From: Candidatus Gottesmanbacteria bacterium GW2011_GWA2_43_14
GTDB lineage: Bacteria; Patescibacteriota; Microgenomatia; 2-02-FULL-39-11
Assembly (NCBI GenBank): GCA_000999095.1
Contig: LCFP01000003.1
Coordinates: 93,437-157,436 of the forward strand
Direction of reading: 5' to 3'
Length of the DNA stretch: 64,000 nt
Position 1 is the first letter of the stretch. The number at the start of each line of letters is the position of its first letter. The position numbers and the translations under genes were made by a program. The notes below the pieces were generated by a model that ran no database searches, was not told where the DNA came from, and saw only the letters and a list, made by a program, of their open reading frames with translations. Positions 43,519 to 53,656 of the stretch are shown here, piece after piece.

Positions 43519-43610
43519 AAGTTCTATTAGACCCTTATCAATTGGACTGTCCAACTCGTCCTAATATATAATCAGCCTGGCTATTTGGATTATTTTAATG
43601 CTCTAAATCG

Positions 43611-44564
43611 ATGCTTGATAAAGAAACTAAAAGGGCAAGATCATCAGTTGTATGGGAGCCAGGATTAACTGTTGCCGATATTGCCTATCTATTAAAAACT
43701 GCAAAAATGGTTGGAAAAATTGTGTCAACGCCTTCTCAAACCATTATTAAGGAACAAGCGGACGATGCCGCTGAGATATTCAGCAGAAATAAATCAAGCG
43801 GTATACCGGTGATAATTGCCGCCTGGAACGAGCAAGAGGATCTGCCCAGATTACTGTATGCATTATCTTTGTCAGAAGGTCCTGTTAAGCCATTGGTAAT
43901 CGATAACGGCAGCGATGATAATACCAGAAAAATCGCGGAAAGATTCGGAGTGACTGTACTGGAAGAGGAGAGGGGAGGAATTATTTATGCCAGAAGGAAA
44001 GGTTATCTGCATTTGAAAAAGGAGAGCGGCAATCCATACATAGTGCTTTGTTTGGATGCTGATTCAATTCCCGGCCAGAATTGGTCTCAAACTATGACGG
44101 AGATGCTTAATAATTATCCGCCAGAAGGGGGTGAGGCTTTCGGATTCTTTGCCTATTATGGAGGAACTTTTTTATCTGATTTACTGCTCGATATTATTTA
44201 CCATAGACCTAATTTTTCCTATCCGATTTATAAAAATACGGTACGTACCCATGGCGGTAATTCCGGAATTAAATTTGACCGAGAAGGGAGAATAATCGAT
44301 GCTTTAACCAGTTTAAATCCAAAATTTGTAACCGGAACGAGTACTTATATTTTAGATGCTGTTTTAGATAATGGAGGATATGCCAGAAGAAATTTGAATC
44401 CCAGGTCTGTTGCATTTACTAGATCAGACCGATTTCCAAACCTGGTATCGGTGCTGGCTTTCGCATTTAAAATGAACAGACTGAAAATGTATAGTGATTA
44501 TTTCGGTAGAAATCCCAGAGTTGATTATTTCAACGGAAGTAGGTATGAAGAAAAGAATAAATAA
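43611..44564 (+). CDS. family-2 glycosyltransferase (GT-A)
   Basis: GIPVIIAAWNEQEDL, VIDNGSDDNT and IVLCLDADS (DxD). Markedly AT-rich compared with its neighbours. Confidence 0.6.
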   Translation: MLDKETKRARSSVVWEPGLTVADIAYLLKTAKMVGKIVSTPSQTIIKEQADDAAEIFSRNKSSGIPVIIAAWNEQEDLPRLLYALSLSEGPVKPLVIDNGSDDNTRKIAERFGVTVLEEERGGIIYARRKGYLHLKKESGNPYIVLCLDADSIPGQNWSQTMTEMLNNYPPEGGEAFGFFAYYGGTFLSDLLLDIIYHRPNFSYPIYKNTVRTHGGNSGIKFDREGRIIDALTSLNPKFVTGTSTYILDAVLDNGGYARRNLNPRSVAFTRSDRFPNLVSVLAFAFKMNRLKMYSDYFGRNPRVDYFNGSRYEEKNK

Positions 44565-44598
44565 GATATGACGGAGTTTAGAGTTTGCACCAACACGA

Positions 44599-45261
44599 TT
44601 AACCGCTTCCGTGATAGCCGGGAATGTTTGTTTTTTTGATGACGGCCGGTACTCCGGCCACAAGAGTGTTGGCCGGAACATCTTCTTTGACGACGCTACC
44701 TGCTGCTACCACGCTATTTTCACCTATAATAATTTTCGGCAGGATTTTTGCCCCCATTGCCACATAAGCCCCTTTTTTAATTACAGAAAAACCGGCCAGT
44801 ATGGCGCCGCTTTCAACGGTTGCCAACTCTTCGATTGCTACATCGTGGCCGATCAATGCTCCCCGATTTATCAGGGTAAAATCACCTATATTTGAGTGCG
44901 CGCCGATAACGCAACCGGCGGCAATAATGGCTCCTTTGGTTGATACAACAGCGCGACGGGACAAAATTGCCCCGGGATGGACCAGGCTGACGGGATGGAA
45001 AAACTTTGGCGGAAGACTGTCAATGATTGATTGGCGGAATGACGGAGTATGAATGCAGCAGGAAAAATATTTTATAGCCCGATCGTTTTCGAGCTCACCG
45101 ATTGTGACTACCAGGTAACCGTCAATCTCTTTTATTTTTTGGCCTTTCTGGTTGTCAACCGGAATTATTTGTTTGAAACCTACCAATTCAGCCAGTTCAA
45201 TGACTTCAGAAATAAAACCGGTTCTGACTCCGACAAGATAAATTTTTTTCCTGCCCGTCAT
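44599..45261 (-). CDS. NeuD/PglD-family sugar N/O-acyltransferase (hexapeptide left-handed beta-helix)
   Basis: N-terminal Rossmann-like KIYLVGVRTGF, then hexapeptide repeats (IGAHSNIGDFTLINRGALIGHDVAIEELATVESGAIL) and VAGVPAVIKK. Confidence 0.7.
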   Translation of the reverse strand: MTGRKKIYLVGVRTGFISEVIELAELVGFKQIIPVDNQKGQKIKEIDGYLVVTIGELENDRAIKYFSCCIHTPSFRQSIIDSLPPKFFHPVSLVHPGAILSRRAVVSTKGAIIAAGCVIGAHSNIGDFTLINRGALIGHDVAIEELATVESGAILAGFSVIKKGAYVAMGAKILPKIIIGENSVVAAGSVVKEDVPANTLVAGVPAVIKKTNIPGYHGSG

Positions 45262-46157
45262 AATCCCAGGAGTTTTCTGGTAGTACGGGTATCAGCCAAA
45301 GGTCTTCCCATGGATTTGGCCACCCTGATTATCCTTTCCACCAGTTTGGCGTTTGTAGCCGGTTCTTTTTTATCCCCGTCCATATAAAAGCTGTCTTCGA
45401 GACCTACTCTGATATGTCCTCCGGCAGTCAGTGAAAAAAGGTTGGCAGGATACTGGTATTTGCCGACTCCGGTTATGGCAAAGCGCCAATCCGGTTTCAT
45501 CATCGATAAAAAAAGATCAGCCGTCCTGTGGTCGAAGGGTGATGTTCCTAAAGATCCCAGAAAAATATTGATCCATCTGGGTGTATCCAGAAGGCCTTTC
45601 CTGATCAGATACAGGCCGTAATTGATCATGCCCGGTTCAAATATTTCCCACTCGGGCTGTATCTTCCGCTTTTTCATGACAGATGCGAGATGCATAATAG
45701 TCTCAGGGGAGTTCAGGCAGGCTTCCTTGGGAAAATTGAAGGATCCCAATGTTAAAGAGGCAAAGTCAGGTTTCTGACCGCCATTAAGTTCCAATACATG
45801 GCTTCTCTCCCGGTGTTTTTGGAAAATCCGCCCGCTGGTGGTTGCGCAAATCACAACATGGCTGTTTATTTTTCTGATGCCGGTTATGATTTCGGCAAAA
45901 ATATTTTTATGGTAGTGAGGTTTTCCGTCCTTGTCGCGTGCGTGCAAATGGAGCATGGTGGCGCCGAGTTTAATAACAGCAGCCGCATCGCGGATAATTT
46001 CCGGCGGGGAAAGCGGAACGGACGGGTTATCTTTTTTGCCCGGTACATTGCCTGTCAGGCAGACGTTGATGATTAAGGGAGCGGAAATCACGTGATTTAT
46101 TGTATCATAAGTGCCAAGACAGAAGATGCTATCAGATAAGCCCGCAACAAGTTTCAT
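45258..46157 (-). CDS. BKACE-family (DUF849, 3-keto-5-aminohexanoate-cleavage-enzyme-like) beta-keto acid cleavage enzyme
   Basis: LIINVCLTGNVPGKKDNPSVPLSPPEI, GATMLHLHARDKDG and GGHIRVGLEDSFY are BKACE zinc-site blocks. The true start may be the GTG near 46091. 4-nt overlap with the NeuD-like gene. Confidence 0.7.
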   Translation of the reverse strand: MKLVAGLSDSIFCLGTYDTINHVISAPLIINVCLTGNVPGKKDNPSVPLSPPEIIRDAAAVIKLGATMLHLHARDKDGKPHYHKNIFAEIITGIRKINSHVVICATTSGRIFQKHRERSHVLELNGGQKPDFASLTLGSFNFPKEACLNSPETIMHLASVMKKRKIQPEWEIFEPGMINYGLYLIRKGLLDTPRWINIFLGSLGTSPFDHRTADLFLSMMKPDWRFAITGVGKYQYPANLFSLTAGGHIRVGLEDSFYMDGDKKEPATNAKLVERIIRVAKSMGRPLADTRTTRKLLGL

Positions 46158-47034
46158 ACTGTGCGTTTACAACGGTGAAAAAACACTGGCGGCTACTCTC
46201 AGTTCCCTTTACGGACAAAAAGAGATTGATTTGGAGATTATTGCCGTCAATGACGGATCCGAAGATAAATCCGGGGAAATACTGCAGAAATTTAAAACGA
46301 AATTCGGCCGGATGACAATAGTCAATATTGGTCATTCCGGTTTGGCAGTTGCCCGTAATACCGGGATAGGTCTTGCCCGCGGAGATTATTTGGCTTCAGC
46401 CGCCCAGGATGATATATATTTCCCCGAAAAAACAATCGGACAGATAAAATACCTGGAAAAGAATAAACTTGATTTTTGTTTCAGTGAGGTTGAATTGATT
46501 GACAGCCGCGGAAGAAAAACCCAAGATAAGAGCCTTAAAATTTATAATGCCCGACTGCTTCCCTGGCCGTTGGTAATTCCGCAGGTGATCTGGCGTTTTG
46601 CCGTCTGTTCACCGACTTTTCTTTGCCGGAAGAATTGTTATCAGAAATTGAAATGGAACCCGGGCATTCTTCTTTTTAACGACAAGTATTTATGGATTAA
46701 GATGTTCATGCATTTCAGGGGAGGCAAACTGCCGCAGGTTGCCCTAAAGCACAGGATGGCCAACAGGCAAAAACAGGGGTTATATAAGCGGAATTTTCCG
46801 GCGGGTTTTTTATATCTGGAACACAGGGCAGCGGTTTTGTCAGCTGTCCTGCCGTCATTTTTCCCGGAGAAAATCTTTTCCGGGAAAGAAAATTTTTTCG
46901 GGCTGGTCAGTTGTATACTGGCTTTGCAAAAAAACCCCGGAGACAAAAGGAGTTTCATGCTGCTGGCCTCTATATATCAAAAATACGGATTTTCATTCGC
47001 GGCTAAACATTTCACTGCCCTGGCAAAAATTTAA
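46111..47034 (+). CDS. family-2 glycosyltransferase (GT-A)
   Basis: SFILCVYNGEKTL, IIAVNDGSEDKS and LAVARNTGIGLARGDYLASAAQDD. Confidence 0.65.
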   Translation: MPRQKMLSDKPATSFILCVYNGEKTLAATLSSLYGQKEIDLEIIAVNDGSEDKSGEILQKFKTKFGRMTIVNIGHSGLAVARNTGIGLARGDYLASAAQDDIYFPEKTIGQIKYLEKNKLDFCFSEVELIDSRGRKTQDKSLKIYNARLLPWPLVIPQVIWRFAVCSPTFLCRKNCYQKLKWNPGILLFNDKYLWIKMFMHFRGGKLPQVALKHRMANRQKQGLYKRNFPAGFLYLEHRAAVLSAVLPSFFPEKIFSGKENFFGLVSCILALQKNPGDKRSFMLLASIYQKYGFSFAAKHFTALAKI

Positions 47035-47036
47035 TC

Positions 47037-47894
47037 CTACCTTGAAAAATTCTCCATCAGGACTACCTTTTTATCGGAGAAGCCTTCCTTGAATTTGGTG
47101 AAACCGCGCCAGCTTTCTGAGGCAACGGGAAACCGCCCGTCATAAACGCCTTCGAAATCCAGGACCTTGGCTCCTCTTTTTTTAGCGCGTTTGACCGCTT
47201 CCCAGACCAGAAGAGATGGAGCAAATAATTTTTTCCCGAGGGGCAGGGCAGCGGCATACCAGTAATAAGCCAGTGAATTGTGGTAAAGAAGCAGGATGCC
47301 GGCAACTGTTTTGCCTTCCCGTGTTTTAGCAAGAAGAAGGTCCGCTTTTTCCGGATAAAAATTTTGCCAAAGTTTCTTCATTTCGCCCGCAATCAGAAAG
47401 CCCATAGGGTAAAACTGCGATTTGCGTACGGCAATGAACGCTTTGAGATCTTCCGACAGCTCAACTTTTATTTCATTTTTCAAAGCCCGGCGCACCGCCC
47501 GCCTTTTGGCTTCCGAAAAGGATTTGAAAATCGCATCTTCAGACCGGGTTAAGTCAACAATTATGGTGGTAGTGGGATTGTACGGATCAGTGTTTATGCG
47601 GAAATCAGAGGTCTGCAGCTTTTTTTTCTCCTTTTTATAAAAGACTGAATTGACGGATAGATGGGGAGAAATTTTAAAACGGTATATCCTGTTTTTTTTA
47701 AGAAAATCATTAAGACCGGTTAAAAGTAGTGGAGAATCCGGCCTGGGACATTTGGCGAAACTGCCTATAAGGGGAAATTTGCGCAGATACACATGACGGG
47801 AATTGAAAACAACGGTCTTCCAGCCGATACCTTCCATAAATGAAGCGAATCGGTCGGATTGCCTGATATCCCTGGCCGGATTATGTTGTTTCAT
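47037..47894 (-). CDS. FemAB-family aminoacyltransferase-like protein
   Basis: GNAT-like fold, with a C-terminal GFTKFKEGF block shared with the upstream paralog. Confidence 0.5.
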   Translation of the reverse strand: MKQHNPARDIRQSDRFASFMEGIGWKTVVFNSRHVYLRKFPLIGSFAKCPRPDSPLLLTGLNDFLKKNRIYRFKISPHLSVNSVFYKKEKKKLQTSDFRINTDPYNPTTTIIVDLTRSEDAIFKSFSEAKRRAVRRALKNEIKVELSEDLKAFIAVRKSQFYPMGFLIAGEMKKLWQNFYPEKADLLLAKTREGKTVAGILLLYHNSLAYYWYAAALPLGKKLFAPSLLVWEAVKRAKKRGAKVLDFEGVYDGRFPVASESWRGFTKFKEGFSDKKVVLMENFSR

Positions 47895-48949
47895 CTTAAG
47901 GAGGCTTTCAATTTCAGGTAGATTTCCCTAAGCTGCTGGAGCCCGTTAAAAAGACGGTAGGTGAGAGGTTTGGCAGTCAGGTCAAAACTGCCGGCAAATT
48001 CGGTCAGTTTGGCGCCGTAGCCTTCCTTGAATTTATGAAAACCGTACCAGGGATCTTTGGGATCGGGATCGGGATCGAGGGCCCCCCACATATCGAACAA
48101 ATTGGCGCCGTGCTTTTTGCCGTAGCGGATCACTTCCCACATCATCAGATTGGAGGGCATAAACTGGCGCAATTGAAGGGATGAGGCGCCGTAGGGATAA
48201 TATAAAACGCCGTTGAAGAGAAATACGATCCAGGCGACCAAAACTTTTTCATCTTCGCCGCCGCCGTGTTTGGCCAATAAAAGCCGGGCAATGCCGGTTG
48301 GGTGCATCGTTTCCCACATAAGCCTGTGGTATTTCTCCGTATGGGCAAAAAACTTCTGTCTGATGGTTGTCTCTTTTAACAGTTGAAGATAGGTTTCGAA
48401 GGCTTCAGGGGAATTGTCTTCAATTATGCGGATGCCTTTTTTTTGCGAGAGGCGGATATTGTAGCGGGTTTTGGGATGCATGGCGGAAAGGAGCAGGTCT
48501 TCGGAGGCAGTCAGGTCGAGGCGGAATGTATAGCGGGTGAAAAGGGGATGGGGGGAAGGCAGCAGGTGTTTAACGACGTCAACGCCTGCGTGAAAATCTT
48601 TCTTTTCGATATCCGGCTCCAATTTGATTAAAATGGCATTTTTTTGATCGCCCAATTCCGTAAGTTTTCGAATAAGCTCACCAGAGGGAATTTTGCCTTT
48701 GGGAAAATAGCCGATTGAGTAGGAAGTAAAAGGAACGGGATGAAATGTCACCAGGGCAGTTTCCGTTAATTTATCCTTTACATACCTGCCTAGCCTGACG
48801 ACATCGATACCGGTTTTTAAGCGGAATTCCCCCCATTCCCATGACTGGAGCGGATGGCCGGCCACTTTATTGAAGGCAACCCGTTCATTTTTTTCAACTA
48901 TGCGGATCATTTTAATGTTATTATAATCTGAGAGAGCTATGGTAAACAA
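47891..48949 (-). CDS. FemAB/FemX-family peptidyl (aminoacyl-tRNA-dependent) transferase
   Basis: LQSWEWGEFR near the N-terminus and the C-terminal GFHKFKEGYGAK. 4-nt overlap with the paralog. Confidence 0.65.
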   Translation of the reverse strand: MFTIALSDYNNIKMIRIVEKNERVAFNKVAGHPLQSWEWGEFRLKTGIDVVRLGRYVKDKLTETALVTFHPVPFTSYSIGYFPKGKIPSGELIRKLTELGDQKNAILIKLEPDIEKKDFHAGVDVVKHLLPSPHPLFTRYTFRLDLTASEDLLLSAMHPKTRYNIRLSQKKGIRIIEDNSPEAFETYLQLLKETTIRQKFFAHTEKYHRLMWETMHPTGIARLLLAKHGGGEDEKVLVAWIVFLFNGVLYYPYGASSLQLRQFMPSNLMMWEVIRYGKKHGANLFDMWGALDPDPDPKDPWYGFHKFKEGYGAKLTEFAGSFDLTAKPLTYRLFNGLQQLREIYLKLKASLR

Positions 48950-49340
48950 AAAGAAGGGAAGAAAATTCCGGATCCATTATATCCCCTTAATTGTCATCGC
49001 CGTCCTTCTGGGCATCATCTACACTAGTATTGTCAGTCGAGAAACTCTGGATTCCCGGTCAGTCAATATTACCCTCCGGTCAAAAGACGAGCTGGATGCG
49101 GATTATTATGAAGATATGGCCAAAACAGATCTTGCCGATAAATTGAGTATACCGATATCGGAAATAAAGACTGTTCAAACGGAAAAAACGGAATTTAATG
49201 ACACAAGTTTAGGTTGTCCCGAGAAAAATAAATTTTATGCCCAGGTCATAACACCGGGTTTTAATATTACATTGTCAGCTAGGGAGAAAGCTTATGATTA
49301 TCACGCGGGATCAGAAAAAGTCGTGATATGTCCTCTCTAA
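48939..49340 (+). CDS. membrane-anchored hypothetical protein
   Basis: Basic N-terminus, one TM (IPLIVIAVLLGIIY), and a short extracytoplasmic domain. Confidence 0.35.
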   Translation: MVNKKKGRKFRIHYIPLIVIAVLLGIIYTSIVSRETLDSRSVNITLRSKDELDADYYEDMAKTDLADKLSIPISEIKTVQTEKTEFNDTSLGCPEKNKFYAQVITPGFNITLSAREKAYDYHAGSEKVVICPL

Positions 49341-52981: not shown

Positions 52982-53656
52982 GTGACAACCAGAAAACTGC
53001 CAATAGTTACCAGCGAGATATACCACATATTTAACAGAAGTGTAGGGCAGCAACCGATATTCAGGAATATCTATGAAAATAAACTGTTTGTCGAACTAAT
53101 CGAATACTATCATTTTTTTCATACCAATCTCCGTTTTTCTTACTACAACCGTTTGCCGAAGGATCAAAGAGATAAGATTTTAAAAGACCTGTACATTAAG
53201 AAGTTATTCAATATTGAAATATATTCTTTTTCTCTTATGCCAAACCACTTTCATCTATTGGCAATGCAAAAATCTGAAAAAGGCATAAGTAACTTTGTCA
53301 GATGTCTTCAAGACAGTTATGCAAAATATTTCAATATGAAAAATAAAAGAGAAGGCGCTTTATTTCAGTCACCGTTTAAAAGTGTCAGAATGGAAACTGA
53401 AGAACAACTTTTACATGTTTCCAGATATATACATCTCAATCCTTTGACATCTTATGTTTTAAGAAATAAAGAAGATTTAATTAATTATCAATGGAATTCG
53501 TTCAGAGATTATGTCAGTGCTTCTCCAAGACGCTTTATAAAAACAAATCTGATTAGTTCATTTTTTAATAAGAACAATAGTTTTGAGGAATTTACTTTTA
53601 ACCAACTGGATTATCAGAGAAAATTAAAAATGGTGAAACACCTGATTTTGGAATGA
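52982..53656 (+). CDS. REP-associated tyrosine transposase (RAYT) / IS200-like HUH transposase
   Basis: HUH motif in SLMPNHFHLLAMQ, and a catalytic-Tyr block VSRYIHLNPLTSYV (YIHxNP). AT-rich versus flanks, and flanked on both sides by the palindromic element. Confidence 0.65.
   Translation: MTTRKLPIVTSEIYHIFNRSVGQQPIFRNIYENKLFVELIEYYHFFHTNLRFSYYNRLPKDQRDKILKDLYIKKLFNIEIYSFSLMPNHFHLLAMQKSEKGISNFVRCLQDSYAKYFNMKNKREGALFQSPFKSVRMETEEQLLHVSRYIHLNPLTSYVLRNKEDLINYQWNSFRDYVSASPRRFIKTNLISSFFNKNNSFEEFTFNQLDYQRKLKMVKHLILE

What the first reader, a model, noticed from the sequence alone, without database searches (positions are those of the whole stretch)
43611..48949. Glycan/peptide-modification cluster that embeds a BKACE-family beta-keto-acid cleavage enzyme next to a NeuD-like acyltransferase and two FemAB-family genes
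Gene order is GT2 (AT-rich), NeuD/PglD-like hexapeptide acyltransferase, BKACE (HLHARD and GHIRVGLED blocks), GT2, FemAB-like, FemAB/FemX-like. BKACE to NeuD and FemAB to FemAB overlap by ATGA. BKACE enzymes interconvert beta-keto acids and acyl-CoAs. Their placement in a sugar/peptidoglycan-decoration operon is unusual. It suggests an unusual acyl donor (for example a 3-oxo/3-hydroxybutyryl-type group) that the NeuD-like enzyme would transfer onto an amino sugar. FemAB proteins, which depend on aminoacyl-tRNA, would add amino acids. The pathway interpretation is inference.
Basis: inference. Interest (0 to 1): 0.6.

Follow-up and report, generated by a model that had tools for sequence, protein, structure and literature searches.

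The report
BKACE–acyltransferase sugar-decoration module
A small gene module that pairs a beta-keto-acid cleavage enzyme with an amino-sugar acyltransferase and a glycosyltransferase has been inserted next to unrelated cell-wall genes in a Gottesmanbacteria genome. The same enzyme pairing recurs in many uncultured bacteria, which points to an undescribed way of making an unusual acyl group for surface sugars.

Summary
The six genes, their Pfam families, the two ATGA overlaps and the BKACE motifs are all present (Candidatus Gottesmanbacteria GW2011_GWA2_43_14).

The "cluster" is composite:
- Window 43519-47036 (GT2a, LbH, BKACE, GT2b) is a 3.5-kb insertion into a conserved housekeeping backbone: RmuC-VIT1-UvrD-NIF3 | FemAB-FemAB-UvrD-TIM-LCP.
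- Other Gottesmanbacteria keep this backbone without the insertion.
- The FemAB pair is a core Patescibacteria gene pair resembling S. aureus FemX. It is not linked to BKACE elsewhere.

The conserved unit is GT2b head-to-head with BKACE-LbH. It sits at four or more different genomic positions in Microgenomates.

Outside CPR, the same LbH subfamily and the same BKACE clade form a four-gene cassette with a DegT sugar aminotransferase and a GT-like gene. BKACE lies within 3 kb of the LbH gene in 27 of 79 metagenomic loci.

All LbH-linked BKACEs fall in one clade. It keeps the catalytic residues and has its own pocket signature. Its members are also found fused to GNAT acyltransferases.

Best reading: BKACE makes a non-acetyl acyl-CoA that the PglD/PerB-like enzyme transfers onto an amino sugar. 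The acyl group is unknown. I found no literature on this pairing.

The parts
43519..47036 (.). 3.5-kb insertion carrying the module, between NIF3 and the FemAB pair
   Evidence: L174 and L175 have NIF3 followed directly by the FemAB pair (5 bp apart in L174) within the same backbone order. No flanking repeats were found.
45258..46091 (-). BKACE (277 aa from GTG 46091; the longest ORF runs to ATG 46157)
   Evidence: Pfam PF05853 at 248 bits. Kce 2Y7D at E 1e-45. Zn and catalytic residues are kept, with the clade signature S84 R86 T108 N170 N215 D236. It scores below all four NCBIfam equivalog cut-offs.
44599..45261 (-). PglD/PerB/VioB-like left-handed beta-helix acyltransferase, overlapping the BKACE stop codon by ATGA
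   Evidence: Hexapep Pfam hit. TIGR03570 at 136.5 bits. The catalytic His (IGHD) aligns with PerB His141. AF2 model pLDDT 95.5; Foldseek matches PerB, PglD and PglB-ATD over the full length with TM 0.82-0.93.
46126..47034 (+). GT2b glycosyltransferase, head-to-head with BKACE (about 34 bp apart); third conserved member of the module
   Evidence: Pfam GT2 at 83 bits. Orthologs of 45-71% identity sit divergent from BKACE in L001, L003, L004, L092 and L093.
43611..44564 (+). GT2a glycosyltransferase, a lineage-specific passenger of the insertion
   Evidence: Pfam GT2 at 54 bits. GC 0.393. No ortholog in any related locus; L001 has a PIN/MazE pair at this position.
47891..48913 (-). FemX-like aminoacyl-tRNA-dependent transferase; a core gene, not part of the module
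   Evidence: S. aureus FmhB/FemX 6SNR at E 4e-26 over both domains. More than 6000 homologs, 53-71% identical in the top 120 clusters. Same place in the backbone in L174 and L175.
47037..47894 (-). Shorter FemAB paralog (285 aa), overlapping the previous gene by ATGA; a core gene, not part of the module
   Evidence: Pfam FemAB at 54 bits. 30% identical to the long paralog. Orthologs in L174 and L175 at 53-58% identity.

Best explanation
The real unit is a three-gene module: GT2b divergent from a translationally coupled BKACE-LbH pair, plus a lineage-specific GT2a. It was inserted between NIF3 and the core FemAB pair.

Proposed mechanism (inferred):
1. BKACE uses acetyl-CoA to cleave a small, probably polar or anionic, beta-keto acid. 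The products are acetoacetate and a non-acetyl acyl-CoA.
2. The PglD/PerB-like LbH enzyme uses its conserved catalytic histidine to transfer that acyl group onto the amino group of a nucleotide-activated amino sugar.
3. GT2b installs the acylated sugar on a cell-surface glycan.

Shown here: the gene families, intact catalytic residues, conserved linkage, the distinct BKACE clade, and the insertion.

Inferred: the direction of the reaction, the identity of the acyl group, the identity of the sugar, and the target glycan.

The FemAB pair most likely builds peptidoglycan cross-bridges independently of the module.
For: 1. Linkage in CPR. BKACE is followed by LbH in all CPR relatives from 78% to 48% identity. 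The flanks differ: the NIF3/Fem slot, adenine deaminase/MiaAB, beta-eliminating lyase, GT1/PMT_2, and ABC exporter/Wzx.

2. Linkage outside CPR.
- BKACE lies within 3 kb of the LbH gene in 27 of 79 distinct loci of the LbH subfamily.
- Among 16 loci with at least 2.5 kb on both sides, 6 have BKACE, 11 have DegT and 4 have all four cassette genes.
- Gene order is shuffled but the gene set is kept, and there is no fifth conserved gene.
- The DegT genes resemble the PseC, WecE and ArnB 4-aminotransferases.

3. One BKACE clade. All 30 LbH-adjacent BKACEs fall in one clade, apart from Kce, 3NO5 and about 70 other BKACEs, and share a pocket signature.

4. Other acyltransferase partners. The same clade is fused to GNAT acyltransferases. 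In L014 it overlaps a short LbH gene.

5. Alternative donor supply. LbH relatives without BKACE carry other candidate donor-supply genes: ACP plus AMP-ligase in L090, and acyl-CoA dehydrogenase plus AMP-ligase in L091.

6. LbH structure. The fold and the catalytic His match PerB and PglD.

7. The insertion, and the independence of the FemAB pair.
Against: - No sugar aminotransferase or dehydratase was found in about 200 kb of CPR sequence around these modules, so the acceptor in this genome is unknown.
- BKACE is facultative. Close LbH relatives such as L170 lack it within 8 kb.
- Many clade members are unlinked to any acyltransferase: L010-L012 and L015.
- Kce Tyr145 is Phe here, as in BsfD, which does non-canonical chemistry. 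Most of the family also has Phe at this position.
- The source of a beta-keto acid in a metabolically reduced CPR cell is unclear.
- The trees are NJ without support values.
- NeuD-family enzymes can also be O-acyltransferases.
Confidence: 0.6

Rival explanations
1. BKACE and LbH are a unit, but BKACE does not supply an acyl-CoA. It might perform non-canonical chemistry: BsfD-like C-acetylation with decarboxylation, simple decarboxylation, or action on a sugar-derived beta-keto acid such as an NDP-4-keto-hexuronate. LbH would then simply acetylate.
For: BsfD shows that the fold can do C-acetylation without retro-Claisen cleavage, and it has Phe at the Kce Tyr145 position, as this clade does. 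Some BKACE groups only decarboxylate. The clade has a remodelled pocket. The L013 DegT scores best on the ArnB model.
Against: Phe145 is the majority state across the family (68 of 72 other BKACEs), so it does not discriminate. Partnership with three different kinds of acyl-CoA-dependent acyltransferase is most simply explained by a shared CoA thioester: two-domain LbH, short LbH and fused GNAT. The cassette contains no oxidoreductase to make a keto-uronate.
Confidence: 0.2
2. One reading: all six genes form one pathway, in which the FemAB enzymes add amino acids to the BKACE/NeuD-modified sugar or peptide.
For: The genes are adjacent in the window and in its 78%-identical relative L001/L002. 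In one distant locus (L091) a FemAB-like gene lies next to an LbH gene of this subfamily, inside a sugar cluster.
Against: The FemAB pair keeps its place in the NIF3...UvrD-TIM-LCP backbone in genomes where the module is absent or about 40 kb away. No FemAB gene lies within 8 kb in L003, L004, L006, L007 or L093, and 0 of 16 assessable non-CPR loci have one. FemAB is far more widespread and conserved than the module. It resembles the Lipid II enzyme FemX.
Confidence: 0.05
3. Chance neighbourhood: BKACE is a catabolic enzyme (lysine fermentation or a similar pathway) that merely lies beside cell-envelope genes in a compact genome.
For: The top NCBIfam hit is the lysine-fermentation Kce model. 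CPR genomes are gene-dense, with mixed functions side by side.
Against: The Kce score of 223 bits is far below the 382-bit cut-off. No lysine-fermentation partners occur in any locus. Linkage to LbH is conserved across phyla and across rearrangements. Kce Glu14 is replaced by Val or Ile.
Confidence: 0.03

Closest known systems
[quoted passage not shown]
   Same: TIM-barrel BKACE domain. The Zn ligands His46, His48 and Glu230 and the residues Glu143, Arg226 and Asp231 are conserved. Arg at Kce position 86 is shared with the 3-oxoadipate enzyme 3NO5.
   Different: It scores below the cut-offs of all four named specificities. It belongs to a separate clade with its own signature: Q80C, G84S, A86R, G88F, H168Y/W, N170, N215, D236 and E14V. 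Its context is glycan genes rather than catabolism.
PglD, PerB, PglB-ATD, WeeI and VioB: nucleotide-4-amino-sugar N-acetyltransferases
   Same: Two-domain fold with TM 0.82-0.93. The catalytic histidine is conserved. Non-CPR relatives sit next to DegT aminotransferases.
   Different: The window protein is below the TIGR03570 cut-off, and its N-terminal domain is not recognised as PglD_N. It is paired with a BKACE, which suggests a donor other than acetyl-CoA. No aminotransferase is linked in CPR.
Sugar N-acylation cassettes with dedicated donor supply (for example V. cholerae O1 perosamine tetronate with ACP and ligase, or 3-hydroxybutanoyl and formyl sugar pathways; from my own knowledge)
   Same: The logic is the same: aminotransferase, N-acyltransferase and an enzyme that makes the unusual acyl donor. 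L090 shows the ACP/ligase version with this LbH subfamily.
   Different: Here the putative donor-making enzyme is a BKACE. I found no report of this in the searched literature.
BsfD (flavophos biosynthesis; PDB 9ZSC)
   Same: A DUF849 enzyme recruited into a biosynthetic rather than catabolic pathway. It has Phe at the Kce Tyr145 position.
   Different: BsfD is only a distant match (E 5e-27). It acts on a beta-keto phosphonate and has no acyltransferase partner.
S. aureus FmhB/FemX and Weissella FemX (Lipid II/UDP-MurNAc-pentapeptide aminoacyl transferases)
   Same: The 340-aa FemAB protein matches both FemX domains without the coiled-coil insert.
   Different: It is a neighbour only because of the insertion, and it is not linked to the module elsewhere.

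Membership tests
BKACE / DUF849 (PF05853) | Domain score above the Pfam gathering threshold | tested here: met
   248.2 bits against 24.8.
BKACE / DUF849 (PF05853) | Zn ligands His46, His48 and Glu230, plus Glu143, Arg226 and Asp231 (Kce numbering) | tested here: met
   All are conserved in the window protein and invariant in the clade.
BKACE / DUF849 (PF05853) | Tyr145, proposed to interact with the CoA sulfur in canonical BKACEs | tested here: not met
   It is Phe in the window and the whole clade. It is also Phe in 68 of 72 other family members and in BsfD.
BKACE / DUF849 (PF05853) | Acetyl-CoA-dependent cleavage of a beta-keto acid | not testable with these tools
   Needs an enzyme assay.
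Named BKACE specificities (Kce, 3-oxoadipate, 3,5-dioxohexanoate, KAL-KCE) | NCBIfam equivalog cut-off | tested here: not met
   223.4 against 382; 193.9 against 350; 123.3 against 430; 127.5 against 725. As a control, 3NO5 scores 493.5 against 350.
Lysine-fermentation Kce pathway | Neighbouring lysine aminomutases, 3,5-diaminohexanoate dehydrogenase and 3-aminobutyryl-CoA lyase | tested here: not met
   None was found in the window flanks or in any related locus.
NeuD/PglD/PerB/VioB sugar acyltransferases | N-terminal alpha/beta domain plus a left-handed beta-helix | tested here: met
   AF2 pLDDT 95.5. Foldseek matches PerB over the full length at TM 0.86/0.90 and PglD at 0.82/0.93. The Pfam PglD_N domain is not detected by sequence.
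NeuD/PglD/PerB/VioB sugar acyltransferases | Catalytic histidine (PerB His141, PglD His125) | tested here: met
   IGHD aligns with PerB VDHD. His139 is invariant in 40 homologs.
NeuD/PglD/PerB/VioB sugar acyltransferases | TIGR03570 curated cut-off | tested here: not met
   136.5 against 160.8 for the window protein. The L089 relative passes at 170.5.
NeuD/PglD/PerB/VioB sugar acyltransferases | Linked sugar aminotransferase that supplies the amine acceptor | tested here: inconclusive
   Absent from the window and from about 200 kb of CPR loci. Present in 11 of 16 assessable non-CPR loci.
FemABX aminoacyl-tRNA transferases | FemAB domain and two-domain similarity to a solved FemX | tested here: met
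   116 and 54 bits. 6SNR at E 4e-26 for the long protein, weak for the short one.
GT2 glycosyltransferases | PF00535 above threshold | tested here: met
   GT2a 54 bits, GT2b 83 bits. Only GT2b is conserved with the module.

The most novel reading that the evidence does not exclude
A distinct and widespread BKACE clade (signature S84, R86, N170, N215, D236) is a dedicated generator of an uncommon acyl-CoA from a common beta-keto acid. Examples would be an oxalyl-, malonyl-, succinyl-, glyceryl- or formyl-type thioester. It feeds acyl-CoA-dependent N-acyltransferases: PglD-like LbH enzymes in glycan cassettes, and fused GNAT domains elsewhere. This would be a new and portable biosynthetic route to non-acetyl N-acyl sugars on the surfaces of many uncultured phyla, including CPR bacteria.
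Probability: 0.4. Interest if true: 0.7.

Novelty: new variant of a known kind. Interest (0 to 1): 0.6.

Why it matters
BKACE enzymes are known from catabolism (lysine fermentation, carnitine, deoxyribonate, 3-oxoadipate) and, recently, from one phosphonate pathway. A BKACE clade recruited to supply acyl donors for amino-sugar decoration would have three consequences:
- It would give a function to a large unannotated part of DUF849.
- It would explain how organisms make some non-acetyl N-acyl sugars.
- It would give a compact three- or four-gene cassette that can be expressed and assayed directly.

It also shows that CPR bacteria exchange small glycan-decoration modules between genomic sites. 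That bears on how these episymbionts vary their surfaces.

Tried and rejected
- Metagenome scan with the single BKACE protein found nothing. I repeated the scan with the LbH alignment instead.
It returned mostly distant BKACEs and no Gottesmanbacteria. It served as a background set.
I redid it with database proteins only.
- I searched for a fifth conserved cassette gene that could make the beta-keto acid or the keto-sugar. None was found.
- I searched for DegT and Glyco_trans_1_2 genes in the window and in CPR loci. None was found.
- I looked for flanking repeats or mobile-element marks at the insertion borders. Only chance-level matches appeared.
- The promoter/terminator scan was uninformative for the 34-bp divergent region.
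- There are no tRNA or Rfam hits in the window.
- I tried to assign the substrate from published active-site groups. The residue lists are not in the accessible texts.
- The Halorubrum locus L087 has BKACE 3 kb from LbH-DegT. I judged it coincidental because its BKACE lies outside the clade.
- I rejected Tyr145Phe as evidence for BsfD-like chemistry, because Phe is the majority state in the family.
Full report
**Source and observation**

The window comes from Candidatus Gottesmanbacteria bacterium GW2011_GWA2_43_14 (CPR, Microgenomates). The BKACE, LbH and FemAB products are 100% identical to proteins of that assembly.

- GT2a, 43611-44564 (+).
- A NeuD/PglD-like hexapeptide acyltransferase, 44599-45261 (-).
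- BKACE, 45258-46157 (-).
- GT2b, 46111-47034 (+).
- Two FemAB genes, 47037-47894 and 47891-48949 (-).

Both ATGA overlaps are in the sequence. The HLHARD and GHIRVGLED blocks align with the Zn ligands and catalytic residues of Kce. GT2a is AT-richer, at GC 0.393 against 0.459. Homologs indicate shorter true starts for BKACE (GTG 46091, 277 aa), for GT2b (ATG 46126) and for the long FemAB (ATG 48913).

**The cluster is composite**

The flanks are housekeeping genes:
- Upstream: RmuC, VIT1, a UvrD/PD-(D/E)XK helicase-nuclease and NIF3.
- Downstream: a small ORF, UvrD, TIM, an LCP ligase and a Big_13 protein.

Two other Gottesmanbacteria loci, L174 and L175, carry this same backbone in the same order, at 42-64% protein identity. 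In them NIF3 is followed directly by the FemAB pair, 5 bp apart in L174. They have no GT2a, LbH, BKACE or GT2b.

L174 comes from the same contig as L004. There the GT2b|BKACE-LbH triad lies about 40 kb away. Window 43519-47036 is therefore a 3.5-kb insertion next to the FemAB pair.

The nearest relative (L001/L002, 78% BKACE identity) has the module in the same slot with different passengers. A PIN/MazE pair replaces GT2a, and two unknown genes are added. I found no flanking repeats.

The long FemAB protein has more than 6000 homologs at E<=1e-30. The top 120 clusters are 53-71% identical. It matches both domains of S. aureus FmhB/FemX. The short one is a 30%-identical paralog. These are core genes, most simply peptidoglycan cross-bridge enzymes. 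They are not linked to BKACE in L003, L004, L006, L007 or L093, nor in any of 16 assessable non-CPR loci.

**The conserved unit**

BKACE is followed by LbH in every CPR relative examined, down to 48% identity in a Roizmanbacteria locus. GT2b orthologs (45-71% identity) sit head-to-head with BKACE in the Gottesmanbacteria loci except L006, where a GT1 gene lies upstream instead. The surroundings differ:
- Adenine deaminase, AI-2E, MiaA and MiaB.
- Beta-eliminating lyase and 2-hydroxyacid dehydrogenase.
- GT1 and PMT_2.
- An ABC exporter and a Wzx-type flippase.

A module that moves as a unit is good evidence for functional coupling.

**Beyond CPR**

A metagenome scan with the LbH alignment returned 79 distinct loci of this LbH subfamily, spanning GC 0.35-0.69.
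- 27 of them carry a BKACE within 3 kb. This is a lower bound, because many contigs are short.
- Of the 16 loci with at least 2.5 kb on both sides, 6 have BKACE, 11 have a DegT sugar aminotransferase, 7 have a Glyco_trans_1_2-like gene and 4 have all four.
- Gene order varies, but the set of four is kept and no fifth gene recurs.
- Annotated examples are L013 (Limnocylindrales) and L089.
- The DegT genes resemble the PseC, WecE and ArnB 4-aminotransferases, and the L089 LbH passes the TIGR03570 cut-off.

By contrast, of 80 BKACE loci sampled across GTDB, only L013 and L014 have an adjacent LbH gene.

**A distinct BKACE clade**

In an NJ tree of 112 BKACEs, all 30 LbH-adjacent ones fall in one clade. 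That clade is separate from Kce, from 3NO5 and from about 70 others.

The clade keeps His46, His48, Glu143, Arg226, Glu230 and Asp231. It differs at the following positions:
- Q80C.
- G84S (invariant).
- A86R (invariant).
- G88F.
- T108.
- F119S/C.
- H168Y/W.
- N170 (invariant).
- N215.
- D236 (invariant).
- E14V/I.

The window protein is below the cut-offs of all four named BKACE specificities. 3NO5 qualifies as the 3-oxoadipate enzyme and shares Arg86. That makes an anionic or polar R-group a reasonable guess, but an unproven one.

The same clade and signature also occur in three other settings:
- Fused to GNAT acyltransferases and preceded by a CapK-like ligase.
- Next to a short LbH gene in L014.
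- Between CapK-like genes in DPANN archaea.

Partnership with three kinds of acyl-CoA-dependent acyltransferase is most simply explained if BKACE delivers a CoA thioester.

**The acyltransferase**

The AF2 model (pLDDT 95.5) matches PerB, PglD, PglB-ATD, WeeI and Pcryo_0637 over the full length, with TM 0.82-0.93. The catalytic histidine is invariant.

LbH relatives that lack BKACE carry other candidate donor-supply genes. L090 has ACP plus an AMP-ligase, and L091 has an acyl-CoA dehydrogenase plus an AMP-ligase. This fits a subfamily that often uses non-acetyl donors, although it rests on two loci.

**Mechanism and caveats**

I propose three steps:
1. Beta-keto acid + acetyl-CoA gives acyl-CoA + acetoacetate (BKACE).
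2. Acyl-CoA + NDP-amino sugar gives NDP-N-acyl sugar (LbH).
3. The acylated sugar is transferred to a surface glycan (GT2b).

All three steps are inferred. The weak points are:
- No aminotransferase or dehydratase was found in about 200 kb of CPR sequence.
- BKACE is facultative among close LbH relatives.
- Many clade members are unlinked to an acyltransferase.
- Non-canonical DUF849 chemistry exists, as BsfD shows.
- The trees lack support values.

**Novelty**

Full-text searches found no link between BKACE or DUF849 and glycosyltransferases, polysaccharides, O-antigen or DegT beyond incidental co-mentions. The family's genomic-context study (NetSyn) does not mention such a context.

I rate this a new variant of a known kind: a sugar N-acylation cassette with a new type of donor-supplying enzyme. 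Interest is 0.6.

Noticed in passing
window 52982-53656 (+): An IS200-like Y1 transposase ORF (Pfam Y1_Tnp, 38 bits) lies between the LCP gene and the Big_13/fn3 surface protein. L174 and L175 have no match to it in the corresponding part of the same backbone, so it looks like a second local insertion.
   Followed up: partly
L172/L173 5727-8374; L008 and L009 around 8001: BKACE-GNAT fusion proteins (about 457 aa) of the same clade are preceded by an overlapping CapK-like AMP-binding gene. DPANN archaeal members sit between CapK-like genes, beside proline-biosynthesis-like genes. This may be a second, non-glycan use of the clade.
   Followed up: partly
L091 2348-8826: A sugar cluster holds FdtA, two DegT genes, a GT2, an LbH of this subfamily and an adjacent FemAB/Acetyltransf_6-like gene, followed by an acyl-CoA dehydrogenase and an AMP-ligase. 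This is the only case seen where a Fem-like gene sits beside this LbH subfamily.
   Followed up: no
L090 7001-11627: LbH-DegT is followed by an acyl carrier protein and an AMP-ligase instead of BKACE. This may be an alternative acyl-donor supply for the same acyltransferase subfamily.
   Followed up: no
window 48939-49340 (+): A small ORF (133 aa, hydrophobic N-terminus) lies divergent from the FemAB pair and overlaps the 3' end of UvrD by about 30 nt. It is conserved at the same place in L001, L174 and L175 at about 40% identity. No family was assigned.
   Followed up: no
L001 4258-6014 and 8507-9157: The same NIF3/FemAB slot in the 78%-identical relative holds two unknown genes (482 and 90 aa; no Pfam or NCBIfam hit for the larger) and a PIN/MazE toxin-antitoxin pair. 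The slot is a variable region in this lineage.
   Followed up: partly
L007 8849-9598: In the Roizmanbacteria locus an unknown 249-aa gene with no family hit sits between BKACE and LbH.
   Followed up: no
window 1-64000: There are no tRNA genes and no Rfam family at gathering score in the whole 64-kb window.
   Followed up: yes
window 46091-46126: BKACE and GT2b start only about 34 bp apart, head-to-head. The spacing is 34-59 bp in relatives, so any promoters must lie inside the neighbouring coding regions. The consensus scan found nothing convincing.
   Followed up: partly
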